Positions 10,673 through 44,058 of a stretch of DNA of 44,747 nt are shown piece after piece. How positions within the stretch are numbered: position 1 is the first letter of the stretch; each line of letters begins with the position of its first letter. Position numbers and translations under genes: made by a program. A model generated the notes under the pieces. The model did no database searches. It was not told the origin of the DNA and saw only the letters and a list, made by a program, of their open reading frames with translations. Source of the DNA: Escherichia phage TR3. The stretch lies in sequence record PP069512, one strand, 5' to 3'.

Positions 10673-13600
10673 ATGGCGCAGGACATTAAAATTTACGGCA
10701 GTAAGGGCGGGCAACCGAAGCAGCACCAGCCTGTAGAGCAACCTGACAACCTAATATCTGTAAACAAGGTTAAGGTTTTACTGGCCGTTTCTGATGGCGA
10801 GGTCGATAATTCGTTCTCACTAAAGGATCTGTATCTCGCTGACGTTCCGGTTCAGAATCAGAATGGAACATACAACTACGAGGGTGTAACGGCAGAATTT
10901 CGCCCAGGCACACAGAGTCAGGACTACATTGCCGGGCTAGAGGGCGCGAACTCAGAGGTGCAGGTTAACAGGGAAATATCCAACTCAACACCTTACATCA
11001 TTGCCGTTAACAACACTCAGCTATCAGCAATCAGGGTTAAGCTGTTCTGGCCTCGATTAATTAAACAAGAGAACAATGGCGACCTGAACGGAACATCTTG
11101 CGAGTATGCGATTGACCTGTCCGTTGATGGCGCTACATACACTGAATACACTCGAGGCGTGGCTAATGGCAAGACAACCAGCGGATACGACAGGAGCATT
11201 AGGGTTAATCTTCCTGCTGAGTTCTCGAGTGCGTTGGTGAGGGTTCGTAAGATCACGGCAGATTCAGAAAGTTCGACGCTGGTTAACGACATGCAAATTA
11301 CGACCTATCAGGAAGTAATCGACGCCAAGTTCCGCTACCCACTTACAGCGCTGGTTTACGTTGAGTTTAGTTCTGACCTCTTCCCTAACGGAATCCCGAC
11401 GATTTCAATCAAGAAGAGGTGGAAGTTGATTCGCGTTCCGACCAACTACAACCCAGAGACAAGGACTTATAGCGGAACCTGGAACGGAACATTTAAGATG
11501 GCTTACTCCAACAACCCAGCCTGGGTTCTTTACGATCTGGTAACGAATCAGCGTTACGGTCTGGACCAGCGTGAGCTTGGTATCACGATTGATAAGTGGG
11601 GTCTGTATGAAGCTGCGCAGTTCTGTGACCAGATGGTTCCAGATGGCAAGGGTGGGATGGAGCCTAGATACCTGTGCGACGTTGTTATTCAGCAGAAGGT
11701 TGAAGCGTATCAGGTAATCCGTGACATTTGCTCTATCTTCCGTGGGTTAACCTTTTATGATGGCGAGCAGATAGGGATTGTTGTCGATAAGCCACGCCAG
11801 CCTTCATACGTCTTTACCAACGACAACGTTGTTGATGGTCTGTTTAACCGCACGTTTGGTAGCGACAAGTCACTGTACACAGTCGCTAACGTTCAGTTTG
11901 ATGACGTTGAAAACTCATACCAACAGGATGTTGAGCCAGTATTCGAACTGGAGGCAACAAGGCGTTTCGGTTACAACCCGGTTGACCTGACAGCCATTGG
12001 GTGCACTCGCAGGAGTGAAGCAAACCGCCGTGGTCGATGGCTGTTAAAGACAAACCTCCGCAGTGAGACAGTCAGCTTCACTACAGGTCTGGAAGGGATG
12101 ATACCTATGATTGGTGAGGTGATTGCGGTTAATGACCAGGCCTGGTCTAGCAACTACACCCTCAACCTCTCTGGTCGCATCGAGTCAGTGAGTGGGTTAC
12201 AGGTTTTTGTGCCGTTTAAAATTGATGCTGCTGCTGGCGACAGGATTCTAATTAACAAGCCTGACGGCATGCCTGAGTACAGGACAATTGCATCTGTATC
12301 TGAAGATGGAATGACGCTGCAACTTAACACAGCTTTTAGCTTTACTCCTCAGCCGGATACTGTGTTCGCGATTGATAAGGAAAATCTGGCGCTTCAGCAG
12401 TATGTTGTTACCGGGATTCAAAAAGCTGATAGCGATGGAGATGATGCTTTTGGCTACACGATTACGGCAGTTGAGTACGACCCGAACAAATACGACGAGA
12501 TTGATTACGGCGTAAACATTCAGGACAGACCAACGTCAATCGTTGAACCAGATACATTACTGGCGCCAGAGAATGTTCAGGTGAGCAGCTACAGCAAGGT
12601 TGTGCAGGGTTTATCAGTTGAAACAATGATAATCACCTGGGATAAGGTTCAATACGCTAAGACCTACACAGTCCAATGGAGAAAGGAGAATGGAAACTGG
12701 ATTAACGTACCGCGCACAGCGAATACAGAGATTGATATCGAAGGTATTTACGCAGGAATTTATGACGTTAGGGTTCGCAGCGTATCAGATACTGAAAACG
12801 TGTCTGCCTGGTCTGGTATTGTAACGGTATCGCTAACTGGCAAGATTGGTCGCCCATCGGCACCTACGGTTATCACGGCGTCAACTGATGAAGTATTTGG
12901 TATCCGTGTTAAATGGGGATTCCCTGAAGGCTCTGGCGATACTGCTTACACTGAGCTTCAGCAGGTTCCAGATAATGGTGATGGTACTTACAATCCTGAT
13001 AATGCAAGTTTGCTTACGTTACTTCCTTATCCTGCCTACGAATACTGGCATACGCCAATTCAGCCAGGTAAGGTGATTTGGTATCGCGCAAGATTGATTG
13101 ACAGAATCGGAAATACCTCTGATTGGTCTAATTTCGCAAGAGGCATGAGTACTGACGACGCAAACATTATCAATGATTTCATCAAGGTTGATATTGAAGG
13201 TTCAGAAGGATTCAAATACCTCGAGCAGAATGCGATTCAAAAGAATCAGGACATTCAGAATCAAGCTGAGGCAATTATCGAGAACGCACTGGCTAATGAT
13301 GGCGATGTTCGCAGAATGACAAAGGAGAACGGCAAGCGTAAGGCTGAATATGTTCAGGCTGTGAATCTCATAGCCGATGAAACTCAGGCGCGCGTAGAGG
13401 CTCTAACGGCCCTTAAGGCGCAGATAGATGATGAAGTTGTAGCATCGATTACAGAAGTTCAGACTGCATTAGCCACAGAGACAGAAGCAAGGACTACTGC
13501 AGACACGACTCTATCAGCAAGACTTGGTGAAAATGAGGCGGCTTTAAACCAGAAGCTGGACGCATTCTCTAATGCCACATCGACTGGTGTGCAGTACGGA

Positions 13601-15995: not shown

Positions 15996-16685
15996 CTACT
16001 TATCTTTAAGTAGCAACTTGATATCAATTCCTAGATTATTCTCAATCAATCCAGTCAGTGCACCTACCTTTTCCTTAAGTGCGAAGCACTGTGTTTCATA
16101 CTTGAATCTCAACTCCATCTCATCAGAGCGACTTGACCAGCACTGCCGAGCCTCGCACGCTAGCTCATCAATCTTCTTGTCAAGTTCCTTATCTGACAGG
16201 GTGATTTCAGTAATTCGCTGCTCAGCTACGATTCTCTGGATCAAGTGAGCATTCTGCGCTTGCAGGTATCCATTCTTCATTCTTTCCTCTTTAAGTTCAT
16301 CAATGCTTACCATCTGACTGATTACTTCCGCTTGCTTGTTGATGGTGCTTTGCATTTCTTTAAGCTTAGCAAGCACTGCGCGACGAACGAACTTTGATTC
16401 TCTCATCCCAATCAAAAGCATCTGTTCCATATTGAGCACTGGTGAGTTGATTGACTTTCTATAACCTCCTCTACCCTCACTCTTGATTACGAAACTTTCG
16501 TAGTCAAACTCAAACCCTTCAAGCTCATCCTCTATTCTCTCAACAAAGTCATTGTGTCGAACATTGGACTCCCCAGCGATCAACATCGCTGGGTTGATAA
16601 CTTCATTTAAAAACTGATAACTATTCATTTTTACGTCTTCATTAAGTAATGCTAAGTTCATTTTCGTCTCTCTTTTGTTTTTCAT
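15996..16685 (-). CDS. hypothetical regulatory-like protein with coiled-coil C-terminus (start may be 16661)
   Basis: 229-aa ORF downstream of promoter box at 16791-16810; function not recognisable. Confidence 0.55.
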   Translation of the reverse strand: MKNKRETKMNLALLNEDVKMNSYQFLNEVINPAMLIAGESNVRHNDFVERIEDELEGFEFDYESFVIKSEGRGGYRKSINSPVLNMEQMLLIGMRESKFVRRAVLAKLKEMQSTINKQAEVISQMVSIDELKEERMKNGYLQAQNAHLIQRIVAEQRITEITLSDKELDKKIDELACEARQCWSSRSDEMELRFKYETQCFALKEKVGALTGLIENNLGIDIKLLLKDK

Positions 16686-16765
16686 TCCTAAGATTTGAGG
16701 AGTTAACTAAGTTCTTTTCCTCAATTTGAGGAGGAGTTGACAGCACCATTGCCGCCACGCGCCTA

Positions 16766-16810
16766 AATATACCTAAAGATAGCCAGTTGTCTTTAGCAAA
16801 TCGTGCTATT
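16766..16810 (-). promoter_or_regulatory. phage promoter box (minus strand), 22-bp spacer, TATATT
   Basis: rc of 16791-16810 = AATAGCACGATTTGCTAAAG; -10-like rc of 16766-16771. Confidence 0.5.
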
Positions 16811-16839
16811 TATCGACAATTTCACCATAAATCACAGTT

Positions 16840-17001
16840 ACACGTAACCGATGTAACTCGATGTATACAATCTCATCCGCGGGAAATGATATACGCGCTG
16901 TTACGCCAATTTACGCATTGGTTACATTAAAATATCTATATATATCAACCTTTTACTCTTATTATTATTATTATATATATTACTGTGTATATCATGTAAC
17001 T
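16840..17001. repeat. non-coding control element, copy A (ACACGTAACCG box, GTTACGC repeats, (ATT)5(TA)4 microsatellite, TCATGTAACT)
   Basis: Paralogous to 34915..35070 with conserved spacing (152 vs 146 bp between the two anchor boxes). Confidence 0.6.
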
Positions 17002-17229
17002 ACTTCTATAGAGTGTTCCGGTTATAATTTTAATATCATGTGGATTTATACAGTATTGCGCGGCAGCTATACCAATGCACCCTCAGCGAGAAACGGCATA
17101 CACGATATACACGATGTTTACATTGAGCTATGGCTGGCTTGAGATGCCAAAAAGCGTAACTAGTGCCAATGCCTACACGAAATTACAAAGATTCACGCGT
17201 AAACTTAAATCAACGATTGGCAAAACCAA

Positions 17230-17257
17230 TTGGACTGGTTACGGTGCTGAATATATA
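17230..17257 (+). promoter_or_regulatory. candidate sigma70 promoter (TTGGAC-N16-TATATA)
   Basis: Canonical spacing; about 40 nt upstream of ATG 17297. Confidence 0.35.
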
Positions 17258-17296
17258 GTTACCTCATCGAAAGCAATCAACCAGAGAGATATATAA

Positions 17297-17491
17297 ATGA
17301 CCTACTACATTATCAAAGAGAAAAACAACGCACTGTTCGGCGACTGCTACTTTGGAGGAGAGGCCGGTTACACCACGGATAAGAACGAAGCAGACAGATT
17401 CGAGACCAAAGGAGAAGCCCGCGATGTACTGACCGGTTACTTCACTGAAGAAGATTTGAAGTCTGTTAAAGTAGTTAAGGTCAAGGGGTGA
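17297..17491 (+). CDS. hypothetical protein (64 aa)
   Basis: First ORF of rightward recombination operon. Confidence 0.5.
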   Translation: MTYYIIKEKNNALFGDCYFGGEAGYTTDKNEADRFETKGEARDVLTGYFTEEDLKSVKVVKVKG

Positions 17492-17494
17492 GTT

Positions 17495-18460
17495 ATGAGC
17501 TTTAAAGTTTTTACGCGAGAGGAGCTAAGCAACGAGGCTTACCACGCTGAAACTGAACACATCTCAGGTAGCTCGCTTGTCGAGATTATCCAGGGATCAC
17601 CAGCCAAGTGGAAGTTTAAGCAGCGCAACAATGATAGCAAGGCGCTTAAGTTCGGCACGCTAAGCCACACGATGATTTTAGAGCAAGATGTATTCGAAAA
17701 AGAATACCTTCGCGCAACAGACCTTGACTCGATTGAAGGCTTAATTACAAGTCAGTCTGGATTATCATCAGCACTTAAAAAAGTTGGTGTAGCTGGCACG
17801 TCAGGTAAGGGGTATAGCGAGCTTATAGAGATGATGTATCGATCTGGTGAGGATTGGCCCGTTGGATGGTTAATTGAGCAGCAGGAGAGCGCCCAGGCGC
17901 TTGCGGATGGTAAGGAGCTAGTTAGCGCAGTAGACTATGACAAGGTTGTAGCGATGCGTGAGGTCCTCTGCAACATTCCGGCGTATAATGCGATCGTGAA
18001 CAGTAAGACGGCGCAGAAAGAGTTATCGATCTTCGGTGAGATTCTAGGAGTCGGCGTTAAGATTCGAATTGACCACGTTGATGTTGTTGATGGAGCAGTT
18101 CGGATCACAGATTACAAAACGACAGCAGACGCAAGCCCGGAAGGATTCGGTAAGTCAGCATTCAACCACGGATACCTTGCAAAAATGGCACTTCAGCGTG
18201 ATCTGTTTGTGAAAGCATTCAACGAGAAGCGCAAGGTTGTTGTGGGGTTGCTGGCACAGGAGAAGGTGGAGCCATACTTACCAATGCTGTACACCCTAAC
18301 TGACGAACAGCTTCGCATTGGTCGTCTCCAGTATCTTGAGGCACTTGCCACTTACAAGAAGTGCAAGGAGCTAGATATCTGGCCTGGGTACTCGAACGGC
18401 ATAACAGAGCAAGAACTACTAGTCCCTGAGTGGGCTCTAAAGCAATACAAAGAAATCTAA
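17495..18460 (+). CDS. PD-(D/E)XK exonuclease (RecB/RecE-like)
   Basis: Motifs RIDHVD ... ITDYKTT (D...D/E-x-K); adjacent to Erf-type annealing protein. Confidence 0.7.
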   Translation: MSFKVFTREELSNEAYHAETEHISGSSLVEIIQGSPAKWKFKQRNNDSKALKFGTLSHTMILEQDVFEKEYLRATDLDSIEGLITSQSGLSSALKKVGVAGTSGKGYSELIEMMYRSGEDWPVGWLIEQQESAQALADGKELVSAVDYDKVVAMREVLCNIPAYNAIVNSKTAQKELSIFGEILGVGVKIRIDHVDVVDGAVRITDYKTTADASPEGFGKSAFNHGYLAKMALQRDLFVKAFNEKRKVVVGLLAQEKVEPYLPMLYTLTDEQLRIGRLQYLEALATYKKCKELDIWPGYSNGITEQELLVPEWALKQYKEI

Positions 18461-22271: not shown

Positions 22272-22317
22272 ATAGCACGAATTGCTAAAGTGGATTGTAG
22301 CATCTTTCAGGTATAAA
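22272..22317 (+). promoter_or_regulatory. orphan promoter box on + strand between two leftward genes
   Basis: ATAGCACGAATTGCTAAAG at 22272-22290; TATAAA at 22312-22317 (24-bp spacer); no downstream + strand gene. Confidence 0.35.
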
Positions 22318-22321
22318 AAAA

Positions 22322-22335
22322 CCTCCCGAAGGAGG
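22322..22335 (-). terminator. terminator of primase gene (minus strand)
   Basis: CCTCC-CGAA-GGAGG hairpin with A-tract on + strand; abuts primase stop. Confidence 0.55.
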
Positions 22336-23310
22336 TTAGCTGTTCAATAAATCACTTGCCTTATATATCTTCTTCCTGATTCCGCTCTTGAATGAGTATT
22401 CATCATTTGGTATTACCACATCAAGATTCCTCTCATCAGCAACGCAAAGCAATTCCCTATCAAGATAGCAAGCAACTCTTAACTTGAAATCTTTGAGTGC
22501 GTAAGCAACCATCTCCATGTTGTAGCTAGAGTGGCAAACAAGTACACATCGGTTGCCAGTAGCAAGATGAACACGAATACCATCAATCCAATTATCCACA
22601 AGATAAGCGTACTCATCACTTTTAAAGGAACCAATAACAGCAACTGACTGGCGTGTGTAATATTTTGCAGCATAACTAACATCTCCCTCCTCGTTAATAA
22701 ACATTACATTGCACATTTCTTCTGATATACCGTCACTATAAACCATAAAGCACGGTATTGCGTGTATTATTTCACCGGATTTTGTCCTGCCAACATCAAA
22801 ACCAAACTCGCTATAGATACCCTCGTATGTACTGAGCGGGGTTGATTCTACTCTTTCAGTCCTCTCCATTATCTCTAAGCATCTCTCGTGGTCAATTTGA
22901 GCGCCCATTTTGTAGAGCTTGGTTCTTGATGCTTGCTTGTTTGCCTTGTTAACAACCTCAACAGGGATAAGGCTTAACCACTCACCGAGAACATCGATAC
23001 ATTCACTAAATGACTCACCTCGCATTTTCTGGACCCAAACAACACCATCTCCTGAACCGCATTGGTTGCAGATAATTCCACCATCACCATCTTCGCTAAC
23101 CTTATTAGTCCATCTTGCGCGATCGTTGCCGCCGCAATAAATGCACGGCTGATGCTTTTTGGTCTGGAAAAACTTAGGGTCAGCGCCGCAGATGTTGATA
23201 AGTGCTTTATCCCACAGGCCGCGCATTCTTGGTATAACTTCTTTCTTATCGTAGTGCATATCAATCTGTCTCTTAACAAATAAAAAAAGGATGTACCGAT
23301 TATGGCACAT
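22336..23310 (-). CDS. DNA primase (zinc-ribbon type)
   Basis: Zinc-ribbon motif CIYCGGNDRARW...CNQCG near N-terminus; start may be internal Met at 23259. Confidence 0.65.
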   Translation of the reverse strand: MCHNRYILFLFVKRQIDMHYDKKEVIPRMRGLWDKALINICGADPKFFQTKKHQPCIYCGGNDRARWTNKVSEDGDGGIICNQCGSGDGVVWVQKMRGESFSECIDVLGEWLSLIPVEVVNKANKQASRTKLYKMGAQIDHERCLEIMERTERVESTPLSTYEGIYSEFGFDVGRTKSGEIIHAIPCFMVYSDGISEEMCNVMFINEEGDVSYAAKYYTRQSVAVIGSFKSDEYAYLVDNWIDGIRVHLATGNRCVLVCHSSYNMEMVAYALKDFKLRVACYLDRELLCVADERNLDVVIPNDEYSFKSGIRKKIYKASDLLNS

Positions 23311-23318
23311 CCCATTCT

Positions 23319-23792
23319 TTACTCTTTAGCTTTTCGTGCTGCCTCGTTGGCGGCCTTAATCTTACGCCATGATCGACACTCTGGCTTGGTGGCTAATTCA
23401 GCTTCGGTAACCACGCGCAGCATATGACGCTTTTTGCAACGTAGTGTAAGAGGCTTGCCGTTACCGTCGAATTGCAGGTCTGGTCGGCAGAATGTAGCTC
23501 GAAAACCTTCTCCGGTTCGTTTGTAGTAGTTGTGCGACAGCTGAGCACCACGCGCAGAAATCATACCACGATTGAACCATTCTTCTACAGTTTGGGGAGT
23601 TACCTTTAACTGCTTTGCGATGTTTGCCTTTGTTCCGAAGAAATCAAGGAGCATCTCAAGCCGTGCGCGTAACCCTGCCCTTACCTCGTCTTTTAAAACG
23701 TAGTAGCCTGAAGGTCGTTTCCGTTGTTTTTTGTCTTCAGTGCGGATGGTTCCGTTATTACCGTTAGTGGTTCGCTTGTCAACTGCACTCAT
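23319..23792 (-). CDS. basic HTH DNA-binding protein
   Basis: HTH-like segment TKANIAKQLKVTPQTVEEWF; ATG 23792 with RBS GAGGT (track start 23828 lacks RBS). Confidence 0.55.
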   Translation of the reverse strand: MSAVDKRTTNGNNGTIRTEDKKQRKRPSGYYVLKDEVRAGLRARLEMLLDFFGTKANIAKQLKVTPQTVEEWFNRGMISARGAQLSHNYYKRTGEGFRATFCRPDLQFDGNGKPLTLRCKKRHMLRVVTEAELATKPECRSWRKIKAANEAARKAKE

Positions 23793-23804
23793 TTTGTTAC
23801 CTCG

Positions 23805-23848
23805 ATAGCATTTTTTGTTAAAAGTCATTCTTATTTGATGGTAGTATT
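23805..23848 (+). promoter_or_regulatory. phage promoter box, variant (ATAGCATTTT-TTGTTA, about 21-bp spacer, TAGTAT)
   Basis: Box 23805-23820 in divergent region upstream of helicase gene. Confidence 0.4.
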
Positions 23849-31661: not shown

Positions 31662-33245
31662 TCACCCCAACAATCGCGGATTAATGTAAATCTTATCACC
31701 AATCAGGCATGTATAGTTTTTCTCATCAAGCATAGGAACCAAGTGGTCCTTGATGCGAGTCATTACGCCAGCCTGTCCTTCAAAAGGTTTAACTTTGCGT
31801 GCTGCTTCATACAGTGAGCGAACGCCAACAACACCCTTCCCATTCTTACCTTGCTTAATCAGGATATCAACCAGCTTATTCATTTCAGCATTATCACCAG
31901 CATGACCAGCAGCACTAGCGGACGACAAATAAGTCTTGCTTAACTCGTGGAAAATCATAACCGCTTCTTGCATTGTTTCAAGCTCAATCTCTCTTGATTT
32001 CTGCGGACTCGACCCTGCCGGTGCGAACCAGTTGCGAATAACGTGCAATACTGAGGCAATACGGATTGCTTGCTTATCAAATTTACCAAGAGCACCACGT
32101 AACATCGTGTGGGAATATTTACCGCCATCACCAAGATGCGGTTCCATTTCCTGGCGAGCTCGGTTAAGGTAGCGCATGGATGACGCACTTACTGTCAGTT
32201 TCACTTCAACTTCATTCATAATTTCATGAACGAGACGGAAATAGTCTGCTTTAAGACCATCATCAATAGCCTCGTATGTTGAATCGCCATTCTCATCAAC
32301 AAACACGCGGTCTCCAAGAAATGACTTTTCACGCACCAGAAGGAAACGCTCGGAAACACCAATACCACGCGCACCAGCATTCATAATCGCATTGATTGTT
32401 TCATCCTGAGCAATTACAGAGATGCACCCCATTGCCACGAAACTCATGTTGTTTTCTGCGTTAGCGCGGGCAATAGATACGTTACCAGCATCCCACGCTT
32501 TAAGTACAAGCTCGCTGTTCGTTTTCTTGGAACCATCACCGTATGTCATGCCCAATAATGAGTTGACGCTTGTTGCCTCATCCGAGATGACCGCAAAGTT
32601 ACCCTGGCGGTTGTTGATTCGTGCAAGACCTTCTGGCGTAGTATCTGAGACCGGGAATACGATATCGCACAGCTTCTCGAGCTTTTCCTCTAAATCTTCC
32701 TTCTCCTCAAACAGTGAAGCCATCTCAGATGGTGACTTCTCCTGTTTCATTTCTTTTGCTAGCGCAGACAGCTTAGCCATAATCTTTTTGCGGTCACGTT
32801 TACGCACCTCGTTCAAACGCTCAGTCTCAGCAATCATTGGCGCAATTGACAGAGAGTTAATGGCTGACTTACCAGTAGATGGCGGCTGGCTAGTTACCAC
32901 GTAAAGCGATGTTGGCTGCTGGGTTCCGTGATACTCAACAGTAAAGCGCCCTAGCATCGCAGCGGACACACAACCCAAAAAGTGCATGTATGCTGATGAC
33001 TCTGGGAACTGAACTGAGCGAGCAATATTTGCCGAGAGCTTACCAACAACATCAATGTCATTGCCTAGAGATATTACAGGGTACTTGTCATTACCTGCGT
33101 CAATCTCCATAGGTGTTTTCCAGAATGATTGAGACTGCCGATAGCCATTTGCATTAATGGCAACGCGAAGCGGTGGGAGGTTGTCGGTCGCGGCAATCGC
33201 CATAACTTGTTCAACAGATAGTTTATCTTCGTTGAAATCAAACAT
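31662..33245 (-). CDS. P-loop NTPase of unknown role (possible replication/helicase-like)
   Basis: Walker A-like SQPPSTGKSA; 527 aa; RBS GGAGAG; own promoter box. Confidence 0.55.
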   Translation of the reverse strand: MFDFNEDKLSVEQVMAIAATDNLPPLRVAINANGYRQSQSFWKTPMEIDAGNDKYPVISLGNDIDVVGKLSANIARSVQFPESSAYMHFLGCVSAAMLGRFTVEYHGTQQPTSLYVVTSQPPSTGKSAINSLSIAPMIAETERLNEVRKRDRKKIMAKLSALAKEMKQEKSPSEMASLFEEKEDLEEKLEKLCDIVFPVSDTTPEGLARINNRQGNFAVISDEATSVNSLLGMTYGDGSKKTNSELVLKAWDAGNVSIARANAENNMSFVAMGCISVIAQDETINAIMNAGARGIGVSERFLLVREKSFLGDRVFVDENGDSTYEAIDDGLKADYFRLVHEIMNEVEVKLTVSASSMRYLNRARQEMEPHLGDGGKYSHTMLRGALGKFDKQAIRIASVLHVIRNWFAPAGSSPQKSREIELETMQEAVMIFHELSKTYLSSASAAGHAGDNAEMNKLVDILIKQGKNGKGVVGVRSLYEAARKVKPFEGQAGVMTRIKDHLVPMLDEKNYTCLIGDKIYINPRLLG

Positions 33246-34261: not shown

Positions 34262-34456
34262 CTAACCTTCTACTGTTTCAAAAATAAGCCTATTTTTAAT
34301 TGCTGCAATGACACGTCCATCATCAATGTAGCAGTAAACTGGTTTGAAGTTGTCACCAACTACGTAACCATAAATTTCATCATAAATGTAATGCTTTCCG
34401 TTTCTAAATTCCCAGGTTCCATCATTAAGATTATTTAAGCACTTAACTTTCATCAT
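34262..34456 (-). CDS. hypothetical small protein (64 aa)
   Basis: Start chosen at Met overlapping upstream stop (ATGA). Confidence 0.45.
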   Translation of the reverse strand: MMKVKCLNNLNDGTWEFRNGKHYIYDEIYGYVVGDNFKPVYCYIDDGRVIAAIKNRLIFETVEG

Positions 34457-34650
34457 CTCATTCCTTGCCAGGGTAAACATTCGTCACAGCCCAAGCCATC
34501 ACAACATAGATACTCATCATCTGACTGGAATTGCTTAGCGAGGTCAATATCAATCTTGCCGCGCAAAACCATATCGCTGTACATCTCGTTCAACCCAATC
34601 AGAGCGCATTCCTGCTTTAGCTGCTCATACGCTTCGTCTTTAAGTTTCAT
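34453..34650 (-). CDS. hypothetical small Cys-rich protein (65 aa)
   Basis: RBS AGGAGAGAG; motif CCDGLGCDEC. Confidence 0.5.
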   Translation of the reverse strand: MKLKDEAYEQLKQECALIGLNEMYSDMVLRGKIDIDLAKQFQSDDEYLCCDGLGCDECLPWQGMR

Positions 34651-34677
34651 ATCTCTCTCCTCGTTGTTGATGGATTC

Positions 34678-34722
34678 ATTATGGTCTCGTTACCAATGTT
34701 TGTCATTAGCAAAAAGTGCTAT
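34678..34722 (-). promoter_or_regulatory. phage promoter box, variant (minus strand), about 23-bp spacer
   Basis: rc of 34707-34722 = ATAGCACTTTTTGCTA; CATAAT-like -10. Confidence 0.4.
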
Positions 34723-34741
34723 TCGTTGGGTTTATGTATTA

Positions 34742-34832
34742 TTGCAGTTATTGCAATGATTCATCTCATTATTGCACATATAGCAATATTGCATCTGATG
34801 CAATGATTTTTTTGATTGTTGCAGAATTTGCA
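34742..34832. repeat. iteron-like array of 7-8 TTGCA boxes
   Basis: TTGCA at 34742, 34751, 34772, 34789, 34819, 34828 and TGCAA at 34799; pairs about 9-10 bp apart, pair-to-pair about 30 bp. Confidence 0.6.
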
Positions 34833-34914
34833 ATTATTGATGTGAGGGTGAATGAATGGTGGATGGACTACCATACAAGTTGATTTTTATTCTGGCCGAG
34901 CCATTTTGCCGCAT

Positions 34915-35070
34915 ACACGTAACCGGCGTAGCGCGATGTAAGCCAACCACTATCGTTACGCGAGTTACGCGAAGCTACGCCTAGACTTACACTATAAGTA
35001 CTTAATATATATATATATCTTCTTTCTATTATTATTATTATTATTATTATTATTGTATGTAAGTCATGTA
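34915..35070. repeat. non-coding control element, copy B (ACACGTAACCG box, GTTACGC repeats, (TA)7 and (ATT)8 microsatellites, TCATGTAACT)
   Basis: Paralogous to 16840..17001. Confidence 0.6.
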
Positions 35071-35324
35071 ACTGGTGCTCTTCTGCTATATATATGTTTT
35101 TTCCTATCAGAGTACATATCTGCAATTTTATGGAAGAAATAGCCAGTATTGGGCAACCCCACCCAATTTATGCGTTACAGGCGTTACCACAAACTACATT
35201 TAGCTATAGCTTGGCTAGGATGCCATTTCGCGTAACCACACCTAAAAGTTACCAAAAATTACACTTGATTACGTGTGTAAGTCGATATATGATGGATTCA
35301 ACCTAAACGAGAGGAGTGATAAAC

Positions 35325-35804
35325 ATGAATGAGAAAGCAACATTGGGTCAAGTGATTCGCGAGATGGTAAAACAGGCTCTAAAATCTGAAGATAAGCAAT
35401 TCAGCGTTTCACTAAGGAAAATTGAAAGCATTATTGGCAGTGAAGATGGTTCCATTAAGAAGCTTAAGAGCTCATACATCTACAACACAACAGCTCGCAT
35501 GCCTGAGTTGAGAGACGCAGGTATGAAGGCGACTCACTACTATGATGAAGATAGCGGCAAAAGCCAATTCGGCGTGACAGAGCTATCAGATGGCAAGAGG
35601 CTGGTTATCAAACTGATCCCTGGAACTGCCAACATTGGTATCAGGAAGAAGACCAATGACGCAATCAAGGTGGAGGCAATAACTGAATTCAAGGCTAAGA
35701 TATCGAAAGTCATGCCAGACCTATCGGAGTATGAAGGTGAAGCGCTCGCAGCAGCAATGAAAGCAATTAAAGATTATCGTTTGATTATTGAGGAGATTAA
35801 ATAA
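35325..35804 (+). CDS. hypothetical protein (159 aa)
   Basis: ATG 35325 with RBS GAGGAG (track start 35316 is GTG). Confidence 0.55.
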   Translation: MNEKATLGQVIREMVKQALKSEDKQFSVSLRKIESIIGSEDGSIKKLKSSYIYNTTARMPELRDAGMKATHYYDEDSGKSQFGVTELSDGKRLVIKLIPGTANIGIRKKTNDAIKVEAITEFKAKISKVMPDLSEYEGEALAAAMKAIKDYRLIIEEIK

Positions 35805-37979: not shown

Positions 37980-38055
37980 GTTCTGCTGGCGTAACAGGAT
38001 AACGCAAAGACCTCCTAAGTCTTAGTTGCTGGTTCGAGTCCAGCGCGGAACACCA
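37980..38055 (+). tRNA. tRNA-Arg (anticodon CCU), CCA encoded
   Basis: Hand-folded cloverleaf: acceptor GTTCTGC/GCGGAAC (one G-U), D stem GCGT/ACGC, anticodon stem AAGAC/GTCTT with loop CU-CCU-AA, T stem GCTGG/CCAGC with loop TTCGAGT, discriminator A + CCA. Confidence 0.85.
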
Positions 38056-44006: not shown

Positions 44007-44030
44007 AACCTCCTTCGGGAGGTTTTTTTA
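44007..44030 (+). terminator. intrinsic terminator
   Basis: AACCTCC-TTCG-GGAGGTT hairpin then TTTTTTTAT. Confidence 0.7.
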
Positions 44031-44058
44031 TACCTTCCGCTTGGTCATGATAGAATCA

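What the first reader, a model, noticed from the sequence alone, without database searches (positions are those of the whole stretch)
34915..35070. Two paralogous AT-rich non-coding control regions with microsatellites (candidate origins or regulatory hubs)
Regions 16840..17001 and 34915..35070 share an ACACGTAACCG box, a GATGTAA box, multiple GTTACGC/GCGTAAC repeats, (ATT)n and (TA)n microsatellites, and TCATGTAACT, with anchor-to-anchor spacing of 152 vs 146 bp. Each lies in a roughly 600-bp gene-free gap, next to a leftward promoter box and upstream of a rightward gene cluster. Track ORFs inside are low-complexity artefacts (for example YYYYYIYY). An ACACGTAA / TTACGTGT inverted pair flanks copy B (34915 and about 35268).
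Basis: seen in the sequence. Interest (0 to 1): 0.65.

Follow-up and report, generated by a model that had tools for sequence, protein, structure and literature searches.

The report
Twin origin-like control regions, T1-like phage
A T1-like coliphage carries two copies of a tightly conserved non-coding module, in which phased short sequence boxes flank the most easily melted DNA in the genome; these are the best candidates so far for the still-unknown replication origins of this phage family, and they probably also control the neighbouring early promoters.

Summary
The window is a T1-like phage (Drexlerviridae). Regions 16836-17060 (A) and 34910-35075 (B) are true paralogues: alignment score 81, against 23±3 for shuffles. 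The similarity runs about 250 bp further right than reported.

The small ORFs inside are not coding. The (TA)n and (ATT)n tracts are fixed in length across genera and are the best-conserved part of each gap.

T1, TLS and a Klebsiella Webervirus have the same A/B pair. Each phage has its own box variant, shared by its two copies: GTAAC here, TGTAACA in T1, GTGAACA in TLS, GGTAAGAT in Webervirus. In all four phages the two cores are the two least stable 60-bp duplexes in the genome.

Box arrays with 9-10 bp spacing flank the AT tract in opposite orientation. Boxes also sit in the adjacent sigma-70 early promoters.

Two distant phages with the same MCM-like (DUF3987) helicase have a comparable module beside the helicase gene.

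Best reading (about 0.45): duplicated iteron-plus-unwinding-element origins that also control early promoters. Main rival (about 0.3): transcriptional control only. Nothing here is experimentally shown, and the box-binding protein is not identified.

The parts
16836..17060 (.). Copy A core (boxes + AT-rich tract)
   Evidence: Aligns to copy B. It is 87-98% identical across Rtp, EC3a, 12210, DTL and L021, while the neighbouring recE is 78-91%.
16837..16868 (+). A, left box cluster: GTAAC, GTAAC and GTATAC at 16844/16853/16863 (spacing 9 and 10), plus an inverted GTTAC at 16837
   Evidence: Box map. TRF reports a period-10 repeat at 16844-16865.
16900..16926 (-). A, middle box cluster: GTTACGC, TTTACGC and GTTACAT at 16900/16910/16921 (spacing 10 and 11), opposite orientation to the left and right clusters
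16927..16985 (.). A, AT-rich tract with (TA)4-5, (TTA)5 and (AT)4; candidate DNA-unwinding element
   Evidence: Second least stable 60-mer of the genome (16922-16981, -56.1 against mean -80.6, sd 4.8). 94-100% identical with no gaps in 5 relatives.
16992..17001 (+). A, right box TCATGTAACT
17098..17115 (+). A, tandem ATACACGAT x2
   Evidence: TRF. Conserved in relatives.
17120..17160 (+). A, 41-nt block paralogous to 35196-35236, ending in a GCGTAAC box
   Evidence: The region shows no codon periodicity.
17231..17259 (+). A, proximal sigma-70-like promoter TGGACT-17-TATAGT, with GTTAC boxes in the spacer and overlapping the end of the -10 hexamer
16792..16809 (-). Leftward 21-nt promoter-associated element ATAGCACGATTTGCTAAA
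   Evidence: This family is described in PMC11447400.
34910..35075 (.). Copy B core (boxes + AT-rich tract)
   Evidence: 89-94% identical in 6 relatives.
34919..34943 (+). B, left box cluster: GTAAC, GTAGC and GTAAG at 34919/34928/34938 (spacing 9 and 10)
34955..34991 (-). B, middle box cluster: GTTACGC, GTTACGC, GCTACGC and CTTACAC at 34955/34964/34974/34986
   Evidence: TRF reports a repeat at 34955-34972.
34993..35055 (.). B, AT-rich tract with (AT)7 and (TAT)9; candidate DNA-unwinding element
   Evidence: Least stable 60-mer of the genome (34993-35052, -53.2). 92-96.5% identical with zero gap columns in 6 relatives.
35059..35073 (+). B, right box cluster: GTAAG and GTAAC, spacing 9
35172..35189 (-). 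B, tandem GCGTTACAG / GCGTTACCA
35196..35236 (+). B, 41-nt block paralogous to 17120-17160
   Evidence: No codon periodicity.
35265..35293 (+). B, proximal sigma-70 promoter TTGATT-17-TATGAT, with the TTAC..GTAA inverted boxes in the spacer
   Evidence: Conserved as TTGACT-17-TATGAT in relatives. Annotated as a promoter in EC3a.
34705..34722 (-). Leftward 21-nt element
34742..34833 (.). Four TTGCA-N5-TGCAA palindromes, present only in B. They are not part of the shared module. Candidate pac or operator site.
   Evidence: The T1 record starts inside the homologous repeats.
31662..33245 (-). DUF3987 MCM-like replicative helicase with a C-terminal winged helix (residues about 451-521). Candidate box reader and the enzyme that would be loaded.
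23319..23828 (-). HTH protein (phrog_2856, T1 gp23 family). Second candidate box reader.
   Evidence: 87.5% identical in Sf12, although the adjacent primase is only 55.6%.
22336..23310 (-). DNA primase (Zn_Ribbon_Prim)

Best explanation
Each region is a site where a protein complex assembles on DNA. Arrays of a phage-specific short box (GTAAC family here), spaced one helical turn apart, sit on both sides of the most easily melted DNA in the genome, in opposite orientation.

The most likely role is a replication origin present in two copies, built as iterons plus a DNA-unwinding element. A phage-encoded box reader would bind the arrays, open the (TA)n/(ATT)n tract, and let the MCM-like DUF3987 helicase and the primase start replication.

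The same boxes lie inside the neighbouring sigma-70 early promoters, so the same protein probably also throttles early transcription.

Shown here: the paralogy, the conservation, the box statistics, the low duplex stability, the absence of coding or RNA signals, and the helicase fold. Inferred: protein binding, DNA melting and replication initiation.
For: 1. The paralogy is real in four phages from different subfamilies or genera: z = 21 (window), 14 (T1), 14 (TLS) and 32 (Skenny). The orientation relative to the downstream operon is always the same.

2. Boxes are enriched in the two gaps and differ between phages, but are shared by A and B within each phage. Window: GTAAC, 18 of 125 genomic copies (9+9), p=2e-8. 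T1: TGTAACA, 6 of 6 (4+2), p=1e-10. TLS: GTGAACA, 4 of 8, p=1e-5. Skenny: GGTAAGAT. All but one of these phages infect E. coli, so this argues for a phage-encoded reader rather than a host factor.

3. The architecture fits an origin. The left cluster is +++ with spacing 9-10. The middle cluster is ---(-) with spacing about 10. Then comes the AT tract, then the right cluster ++.

4. In all four phages the B and A cores are the two least stable 60-bp duplexes in the genome, 5-6 sd from the mean and far ahead of third place.

5. The AT tract plus right box is the most conserved piece, with no length change: 94-100% (A) and 92-96.5% (B). Compare recE at 78-91% and the next 100 nt at 54-71%.

6. 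The phage encodes its own MCM-like helicase with a C-terminal winged helix and its own primase. The literature describes DUF3987 as an SF6 replicative helicase with a wHTH (PMC4889955; PMC11724360). The winged helix diverges faster than the ATPase core: 39.8 against 70.9% for Skenny, and 56.8 against 74.7% for TLS.

7. Sf12 has the same box type. Its helicase is 89.5% (ATPase core) and 87.5% (winged helix) identical, and its HTH protein is 87.5% identical. Its primase and recE are only 55.6% and 58.8%.

8. Two distant phages have helicases only 36-37% identical. Both carry a box-plus-simple-repeat module beside the helicase/primase genes, not beside recE. L052 has TGTAAG, 10 of 21 copies, p=4e-11, plus (CAA)12. 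L053 has ACCCCAG boxes around a (TAG)n/(TA)n tract that is the least stable 60-mer of that locus.

9. The origin of T1-like phages is reported as not found (PMC7718038; PMC11447400).
Against: There are no replication data of any kind. The box reader is not identified. The winged helix is a generic fold, and such domains in MCM proteins are not necessarily sequence-specific.

The module keeps a fixed polarity toward the downstream operon, and boxes overlap the promoters. A pure transcription factor would explain both facts equally well.

The two rightward operons that start at A and B are the only ones without the 21-nt element. The regions could therefore simply be the immediate-early control regions.

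GC skew only follows gene orientation. There are no DnaA boxes, GATC clusters or conserved IHF sites.

The covariation evidence rests on five complete genomes. The helicase gene is physically linked to copy B.
Confidence: 0.45

Rival explanations
1. The regions are purely transcriptional control regions of the two immediate-early rightward operons and the divergent leftward operons. The boxes are operators for a phage regulator such as the gp23-like HTH protein. The AT-rich tract acts as curved or easily deformed DNA that helps build a repression or activation loop.
For: - Boxes lie in the spacer of, and at or just after the -10 hexamer of, the proximal sigma-70 promoters at 17231-17259 and 35265-35293, and likewise in L052.
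- The module has a fixed polarity toward the downstream operon, even where it is inverted in Skenny.
- The first rightward genes after A and B are the only operon starts without the 21-nt element.
- The HTH protein is conserved together with box type, independently of its neighbour, the primase.
Against: - The AT tracts lie 210-250 bp from the rightward -35 hexamers, roughly 120 bp (A) and 270 bp (B) from the leftward 21-nt elements, and about 135 bp (A) and 290 bp (B) from the leftward -35 hexamers. That is too far for an UP element.
- Nucleotide-level and length conservation of a simple repeat over 60-100 bp is hard to explain by curvature alone.
- Being the two global minima of duplex stability in four phages is the hallmark of an unwinding element.
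- In Skenny, recE has a different promoter type (a 21-nt element) yet keeps the module.
- In L053 the module lies downstream of the helicase gene.
Confidence: 0.3
2. The regions are recombination or packaging-related cis sites. They could be conserved linker sequences where module exchange or RecE/Erf-driven recombination-dependent replication starts, or part of the pac signal.
For: - Homology between genera starts abruptly at the core edge.
- The window itself is a mosaic: A matches IME253 and B matches TR2.
- Copy B of 12210I and IME542 carries an A-type central block, so the two copies do exchange sequence.
- Copy B lies next to the place where public records put the genome ends.
Against: - Copy A is 18 kb from any genome end and shares nothing with the TTGCA palindromes, which are specific to B. 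The shared module is therefore not pac.
- Recombination hot spots do not need phased, oriented box arrays that differ between phages.
- Being a recombination junction is compatible with, and may be secondary to, another function.
Confidence: 0.1
3. The conserved sequence encodes small proteins (17075-17296, 73 aa; 35094-35306, 70 aa) or a structured RNA.
For: - IME253 and EC3a annotate a CDS here, and phrog_35664 matches.
- BLASTP of the two ORFs gives 11/26 identities, E=6e-5.
Against: - Substitutions show no codon periodicity: 0.33/0.37/0.31 for A and 0.39/0.32/0.45 for B.
- There are frameshifting indels and an upstream stop in Sf12.
- There is no Shine-Dalgarno sequence, and the ORFs run across the promoter and 5'UTR of the next gene.
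- T1 and TLS annotate nothing there.
- Rfam finds only a tRNA elsewhere, and RNA folding z-scores lie between -1.1 and +0.7.
Confidence: 0.04
4. The similarity is chance between AT-rich low-complexity DNA, with neutral microsatellites.
For: Part of the alignment score does come from the (TA)n and (ATT)n tracts. With those masked, the T1 pair is not significant on its own.
Against: - Two different 10-11-mers each occur exactly twice, in the same order and at nearly the same spacing.
- The masked score still exceeds all shuffles for the window.
- The regions are conserved across genera with no length variation.
Confidence: 0.01

Closest known systems
Iteron-type replication origins of phages, plasmids and satellites (lambda ori, SaPI and PLE origins)
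   Same: Several short repeats spaced one helical turn apart lie next to an AT-rich, easily melted tract. The repeat sequence is specific to each replicon. The repeats also occur in nearby promoters, which would allow autoregulation. [quoted passage not shown]
   Different: The boxes are only 5-7 bp and degenerate. The unwinding element is built from length-fixed di- and trinucleotide repeats. There are two full copies 18 kb apart. No initiator has been identified. No function has been shown.
Satellite phage P4 ori plus crr, a bipartite origin with shared TGTTCACC repeats bound by the alpha primase-helicase (from my own knowledge; not verified in a paper here)
   Same: Two separate cis regions in one genome share the same short repeat. 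The phage primase has the P4-alpha-type zinc ribbon. The TLS box GTGAACA/TGTTCAC resembles the P4 repeat.
Archaeal origins: ORB boxes in inverted orientation around an unwinding element, read by the winged helix of Orc1/Cdc6, with MCM loaded between them (from my own knowledge)
   Same: Box arrays in opposite orientation flank an AT-rich tract. The helicase has the MCM fold with a C-terminal winged helix.
   Different: No Orc1/Cdc6 homologue was seen. The boxes are much shorter. This is a resemblance in mechanism only.
T4 oriF/oriG and the T7 primary origin, which are activated by transcription (from my own knowledge)
   Same: An unwinding element sits in a promoter-rich early control region. 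In most members, divergent transcription on both sides would favour melting.
   Different: No convincing promoter reads into the AT tract. The Skenny copy A is not between divergent genes.
The 21-nt intergenic repeat of T1-like phages, aaATAGCACnnnTTGnTAAAA (PMC11447400)
   Same: It occurs at the left edge of both regions.
   Different: It is a different element, present at 16 sites across the genome and already described. It is not the shared module studied here.

Membership tests
Iteron plus unwinding-element replication origin | Multiple copies of a short replicon-specific repeat, helically phased | tested here: met
   Clusters have spacing of 9-11 bp. Enrichment is p=2e-8 in the window, 1e-10 in T1 and 1e-5 in TLS.
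Iteron plus unwinding-element replication origin | Adjacent AT-rich region of lowest helical stability | tested here: met
   The two cores are the two global stability minima in 4 of 4 phages.
Iteron plus unwinding-element replication origin | A cognate initiator binds the repeats | not testable with these tools
   There are two candidates only: the HTH protein and the helicase winged helix.
Iteron plus unwinding-element replication origin | Replication starts there, or the region supports replication in cis | not testable with these tools
   No data exist. GC skew is uninformative.
Iteron plus unwinding-element replication origin | Association with the replication genes across relatives | tested here: inconclusive
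   Copy B starts the leftward operon that contains the helicase. In L052 and L053 the module abuts the helicase/primase genes. Copy A sits next to recE instead.
P4 ori/crr system | Repeats bound by the C-terminal origin-binding domain of a fused alpha primase-helicase | tested here: not met
   Primase and helicase are separate genes. The helicase has an MCM-like fold. There is no sequence match to P4 alpha and no fold match in the top 60.
DnaA/oriC-type origin | DnaA boxes and GATC clusters | tested here: not met
   None were found in the cores of 5 phages.
Promoter UP element | AT-rich tract at about -40 to -60 of a promoter | tested here: not met
   The tracts lie 210-250 bp from the rightward -35 hexamers and about 135 bp (A) to 290 bp (B) from the leftward -35 hexamers.
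Hypervariable microsatellite (contingency locus) | Copy number varies between isolates | tested here: not met
   There are zero gap columns in the tract in 5 relatives (A) and 6 relatives (B).
Protein-coding gene (phrog_35664 and public CDS annotations) | Codon-position bias of substitutions and an intact frame in relatives | tested here: not met
Known structured RNA (Rfam) | Covariance-model hit or excess folding energy | tested here: not met
DUF3987 / SF6 MCM-like replicative helicase (the trans-acting partner) | AAA+ MCM-like core plus C-terminal winged helix | tested here: met

The most novel reading that the evidence does not exclude
T1-like phages would start replication at two duplicated origins whose unwinding element is a length-fixed microsatellite. 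A phage-encoded reader would load a bacterial-virus MCM-like helicase between inverted box arrays, as archaeal ORB/Orc1 origins do. The two copies might cooperate by looping, as P4 ori and crr do, and the same complex might switch off immediate-early transcription. The module would be an ancestral partner of DUF3987 helicases well beyond the Drexlerviridae.
Probability: 0.2. Interest if true: 0.8.

Novelty: new variant of a known kind. Interest (0 to 1): 0.6.

Why it matters
T1 is one of the seven classic T phages, and the Drexlerviridae now include over a thousand sequenced genomes. They are frequent laboratory and fermentation contaminants. The papers read here still state that no origin, and no iterons, could be found.

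This analysis turns that open question into a direct experiment on two defined segments of about 200 bp and two candidate proteins. It would also give the first cis-acting partner for the widespread but little-studied DUF3987 MCM-like helicases of phages.

Other consequences are practical. It explains why these gaps are the best-conserved non-coding DNA of the family. It flags several public CDS annotations and one PHROG family as probably spurious. It also provides a handle for building T1-based replicons or for blocking replication of these contaminants.

Tried and rejected
- **Coding small ORFs.** Rejected: no codon periodicity, frameshifting indels and a stop in Sf12.
- **Structured or known RNA.** Rfam finds only tRNA-Arg, and folding z-scores are near zero on both strands.
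- **Host-factor origin marks.** No DnaA boxes and no GATC clusters. An IHF core (TATCAACCTTTTA) occurs only in the A-type block and is not conserved in T1, TLS or Skenny.
- **GC skew as an origin marker.** It only mirrors gene orientation.
- **Strong promoter inside the AT tract.** Only low-complexity consensus matches were found.
- **P4 alpha relationship of the helicase.** No sequence hit and no special fold similarity.
- **Satellites, plasmids or prophages carrying the module.** No match in 5,426 E. coli genomes or 72,556 plasmids.
- **Exact-pattern scan of IMG/VR.** The 15 specified bases mostly gave chance hits in unrelated contigs, and only six T1-like loci were useful.
- **Literature.** Searches for T1-like origin, pac site or transcript maps found no description of these regions.
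- **Choosing between the two candidate readers.** Not possible: both co-vary with box type in the five genomes compared.

Full report
**What the window is.** Region B (34400-35700) is 100% identical to Escherichia phage TR2. Region A (16500-17500) is 99.9% identical to phage IME253. Both are Drexlerviridae of the subfamily Braunvirinae, that is, T1-like siphophages. Copy A lies between a leftward KilA/anti-repressor-like gene (15996-16685) and the rightward recE-erf-ssb cluster. Copy B lies between a leftward operon of small genes that runs on to the DUF3987 helicase (31662-33245) and the rightward 'left-end' early genes that precede the terminase.

- ACACGTAACCG and TCATGTAACT each occur exactly twice in 44.7 kb, in the same order. 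They are 152 bp apart in A and 149 bp apart in B.
- The two gaps align with score 81. Dinucleotide shuffles give 23.3±2.8 with a maximum of 36. With the microsatellites masked, the score is 37 against a shuffle maximum of 29.
- TRF confirms (TTA)5 in A, (TAT)9 in B, and short period-9/10 repeats made of the boxes.
- The 'leftward promoter boxes' are copies of the 21-nt element ATAGCACnnnTTGnTAAA. It occurs 16 times in the window and is already described for TLS, T1 and Rtp with unknown function (PMC11447400).
- The similarity extends to the right of the reported coordinates. A 41-nt block at 17120-17160 matches 35196-35236, and each gap ends in a sigma-70-type promoter just before the first rightward gene (17231-17259 and 35265-35293). 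The B promoter is conserved as TTGACT-17-TATGAT in relatives and is annotated as a promoter in EC3a.

**The regions are non-coding and not a structured RNA.** Public records annotate a 73-aa CDS (IME253) or a fused 143-aa CDS (EC3a) in gap A, and phrog_35664 is built on these. A 70-aa ORF in gap B resembles it.
- Across relatives, substitutions are spread evenly over codon positions: 0.33/0.37/0.31 in A and 0.39/0.32/0.45 in B.
- There are frameshifting indels, and Sf12 has an upstream stop.
- The frames run straight through the promoter and 5'UTR of the next gene.
- T1 and TLS annotate nothing there.
- Rfam finds only tRNA-Arg at 37980-38052.
- RNA folding energies match those of shuffled sequence on both strands.

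**Anatomy.** Both copies have the same plan.
- A left cluster of three boxes on the + strand, with spacing 9 and 10.
- A middle cluster of three or four boxes on the - strand, with spacing about 10 ((G/T)TTACGC).
- An AT-rich tract of about 60 bp made of (TA)n and (ATT)n.
- A right cluster of one or two + strand boxes ((T)CATGTAAC).
- More boxes downstream, including a tandem pair and boxes in the spacer of, and at or after the -10 hexamer of, the proximal promoter.

The distance between the left and middle clusters differs by 20 bp between A and B, which is two helical turns. GTAAC/GTTAC is enriched: 18 of 125 genomic copies lie in 2.9% of the sequence, nine in each gap (p=2e-8).

**The pattern holds across the family.** T1 (Tunavirinae), TLS (Tempevirinae) and Klebsiella phage Skenny (Webervirus) each have the same two gaps, one upstream of recE and one at the genome ends.
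- In each phage the two gaps are significantly similar to one another in the same orientation: z = 14, 14 and 32.
- Each phage has its own box, shared by its two copies. In T1 it is TGTAACA, and all six genomic copies lie in the gaps (p=1e-10). In TLS it is GTGAACA (4 of 8 copies). In Skenny it is GGTAAGAT.
- T1, TLS and the present phage all infect E. coli. A box that changes from phage to phage but stays the same in both copies of one phage therefore points to a phage-encoded reader.
- In 12210I and IME542, copy B carries the A-type central block. The copies exchange sequence and are presumably interchangeable.

**Physical property.** Using nearest-neighbour duplex energies in 60-bp windows, the B and A cores are the two least stable segments of the whole genome in all four phages. 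In the window the values are -53.2 and -56.1, against a mean of -80.6 (sd 4.8), and third place is -65.8.

**Conservation.**
- The AT tract plus right box is the best-conserved part: 94-100% identity for 16925-17030 in five relatives, and 92-96.5% for 34990-35075 in six relatives, with no gap columns.
- By comparison, recE is 78-91% identical at the nucleotide level, and the 100 nt after the B core are 54-71% identical with indels that are not multiples of three.
- The simple repeats are therefore under constraint for both sequence and length. They are not hypervariable.

**Trans-acting candidates.**
- This agrees with published analyses: DUF3987 is an SF6 replicative helicase with a C-terminal wHTH (PMC4889955), and helicase activity has been shown for a PriCT-DUF3987 protein (PMC11724360).
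- The winged helix diverges faster than the ATPase core.
- A second candidate is the gp23-like HTH protein (23319-23828, phrog_2856), encoded just upstream of the primase.
- In Sf12 (Rogunavirinae), which has the same box type as the window, the helicase is 89.5% and 87.5% identical (core and winged helix) and the HTH protein is 87.5% identical. The primase, which is adjacent to the HTH gene, and recE are only 55.6% and 58.8% identical.
- Box type therefore travels with these two proteins and not with the primase or recE. I could not separate the two candidates.

**Beyond the family.** Two metagenomic phages have DUF3987 helicases only 36-37% identical to this one, and different structural genes. 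Each has a gap of about 550 bp touching the helicase/primase cluster.
- In L052 the gap has TGTAAG/CTTACA (10 of 21 copies in the locus, p=4e-11), a (CAA)12 repeat, and a promoter with boxes in the spacer and after the -10 hexamer.
- In L053 the gap has ACCCCAG/CTGGGGT boxes around a (TAG)n/(TA)n/(TTA)n tract, which is the least stable 60-mer of that locus.
- Their recE-like genes have no such gap.
- The module thus follows the helicase/primase genes. Copy A next to recE looks like a duplication specific to the Drexlerviridae.

**Interpretation.** Phased, oriented, replicon-specific repeats on both sides of the most meltable DNA are the standard anatomy of an iteron-type origin. Here they are inherited together with the replication helicase and an HTH protein. 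The papers read here say the origin of T1-like phages has not been found, and that TLS has no iterons.

I therefore rank 'duplicated replication origins that double as early-promoter control sites' first, at about 0.45. The main rival is a purely transcriptional control region, at about 0.3. Three facts fit that rival equally well: the boxes overlap the sigma-70 promoters, the module has a fixed polarity toward the downstream operon, and the first rightward genes after A and B are the only operon starts without the 21-nt element. Against it: the AT tracts are too far from any promoter to act as UP elements, Skenny keeps the module although recE there has a different promoter type, and in L053 the module lies downstream of the helicase gene.

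A role limited to recombination or packaging is less likely. Copy A is far from the genome ends, and the TTGCA palindromes are specific to B.

**Checks that gave nothing.** There are no DnaA boxes, GATC clusters or conserved IHF site. GC skew is uninformative. The helicase shows no relationship to the P4 alpha origin-binding domain. No copy of the module occurs in E. coli genomes or plasmids.

**Limits.** Everything about binding, melting and initiation is inference. The covariation evidence rests on five complete genomes plus partial loci. The helicase gene is linked to copy B. The older T1 and Rtp papers could not be read, so an earlier mention of these regions cannot be excluded.

Noticed in passing
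window 34742-34833: Four TTGCA-N5-TGCAA palindromes lie just left of copy B and are absent from copy A. They are highly conserved across genera. The T1 reference record starts inside the homologous repeats, and several public records start or end within 200 bp. They may be the pac/TerS site or operators for a dimeric HTH protein.
   Followed up: partly
window, 16 sites (for example 3601, 22272, 26301, 33895, 36325): The known 21-nt element ATAGCACnnnTTGnTAAA precedes almost every operon. The exceptions are the first rightward genes after A and B, which have plain sigma-70 promoters. This suggests two promoter classes: immediate-early and later.
   Followed up: partly
window 16500-18460 compared with 34400-35700: The genome is a mosaic. 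Region A and recE are 99.9-100% identical to IME253 (Rtpvirus). Region B is 100% identical to TR2 (Christensenvirus), whose recE is only 73% identical at the protein level.
   Followed up: partly
window 17075-17296, 34856-34984, 16861-17142, 34868-35125: Public CDS calls in these gaps are probably spurious, and PHROG family phrog_35664 is built on them. The calls are the IME253 73-aa protein, the EC3a 143-aa fusion and a TR2 42-aa protein.
   Followed up: yes
window 22309-22337 and 44007-44035: A perfect 29-nt inverted pair, AGGTATAAAAAAACCTCCCGAAGGAGGTT, lies 21.7 kb apart. It is the same terminator-like hairpin reused in opposite orientation.
   Followed up: no
L052 9203-9759 (JGI metagenome contig): An unrelated phage with a helicase 37% identical has a (CAA)12 microsatellite flanked by TGTAAG boxes, directly upstream of its helicase operon.
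   Followed up: partly
L045 (12210I) and L050 (IME542), B gaps: Copy B carries the A-type central block (TATATATCAACCTTTTACT...). This indicates sequence exchange between the two copies within a genome.
   Followed up: partly
L055 (Sf12) 11547-13005: There is a sharp mosaic boundary between adjacent genes. The HTH protein is 87.5% identical to the window's, while the next gene, the primase, is only 55.6% identical.
   Followed up: partly
window 37980-38052: tRNA-Arg gene, annotated with anticodon CCT in TR2 and Sf12.
   Followed up: no
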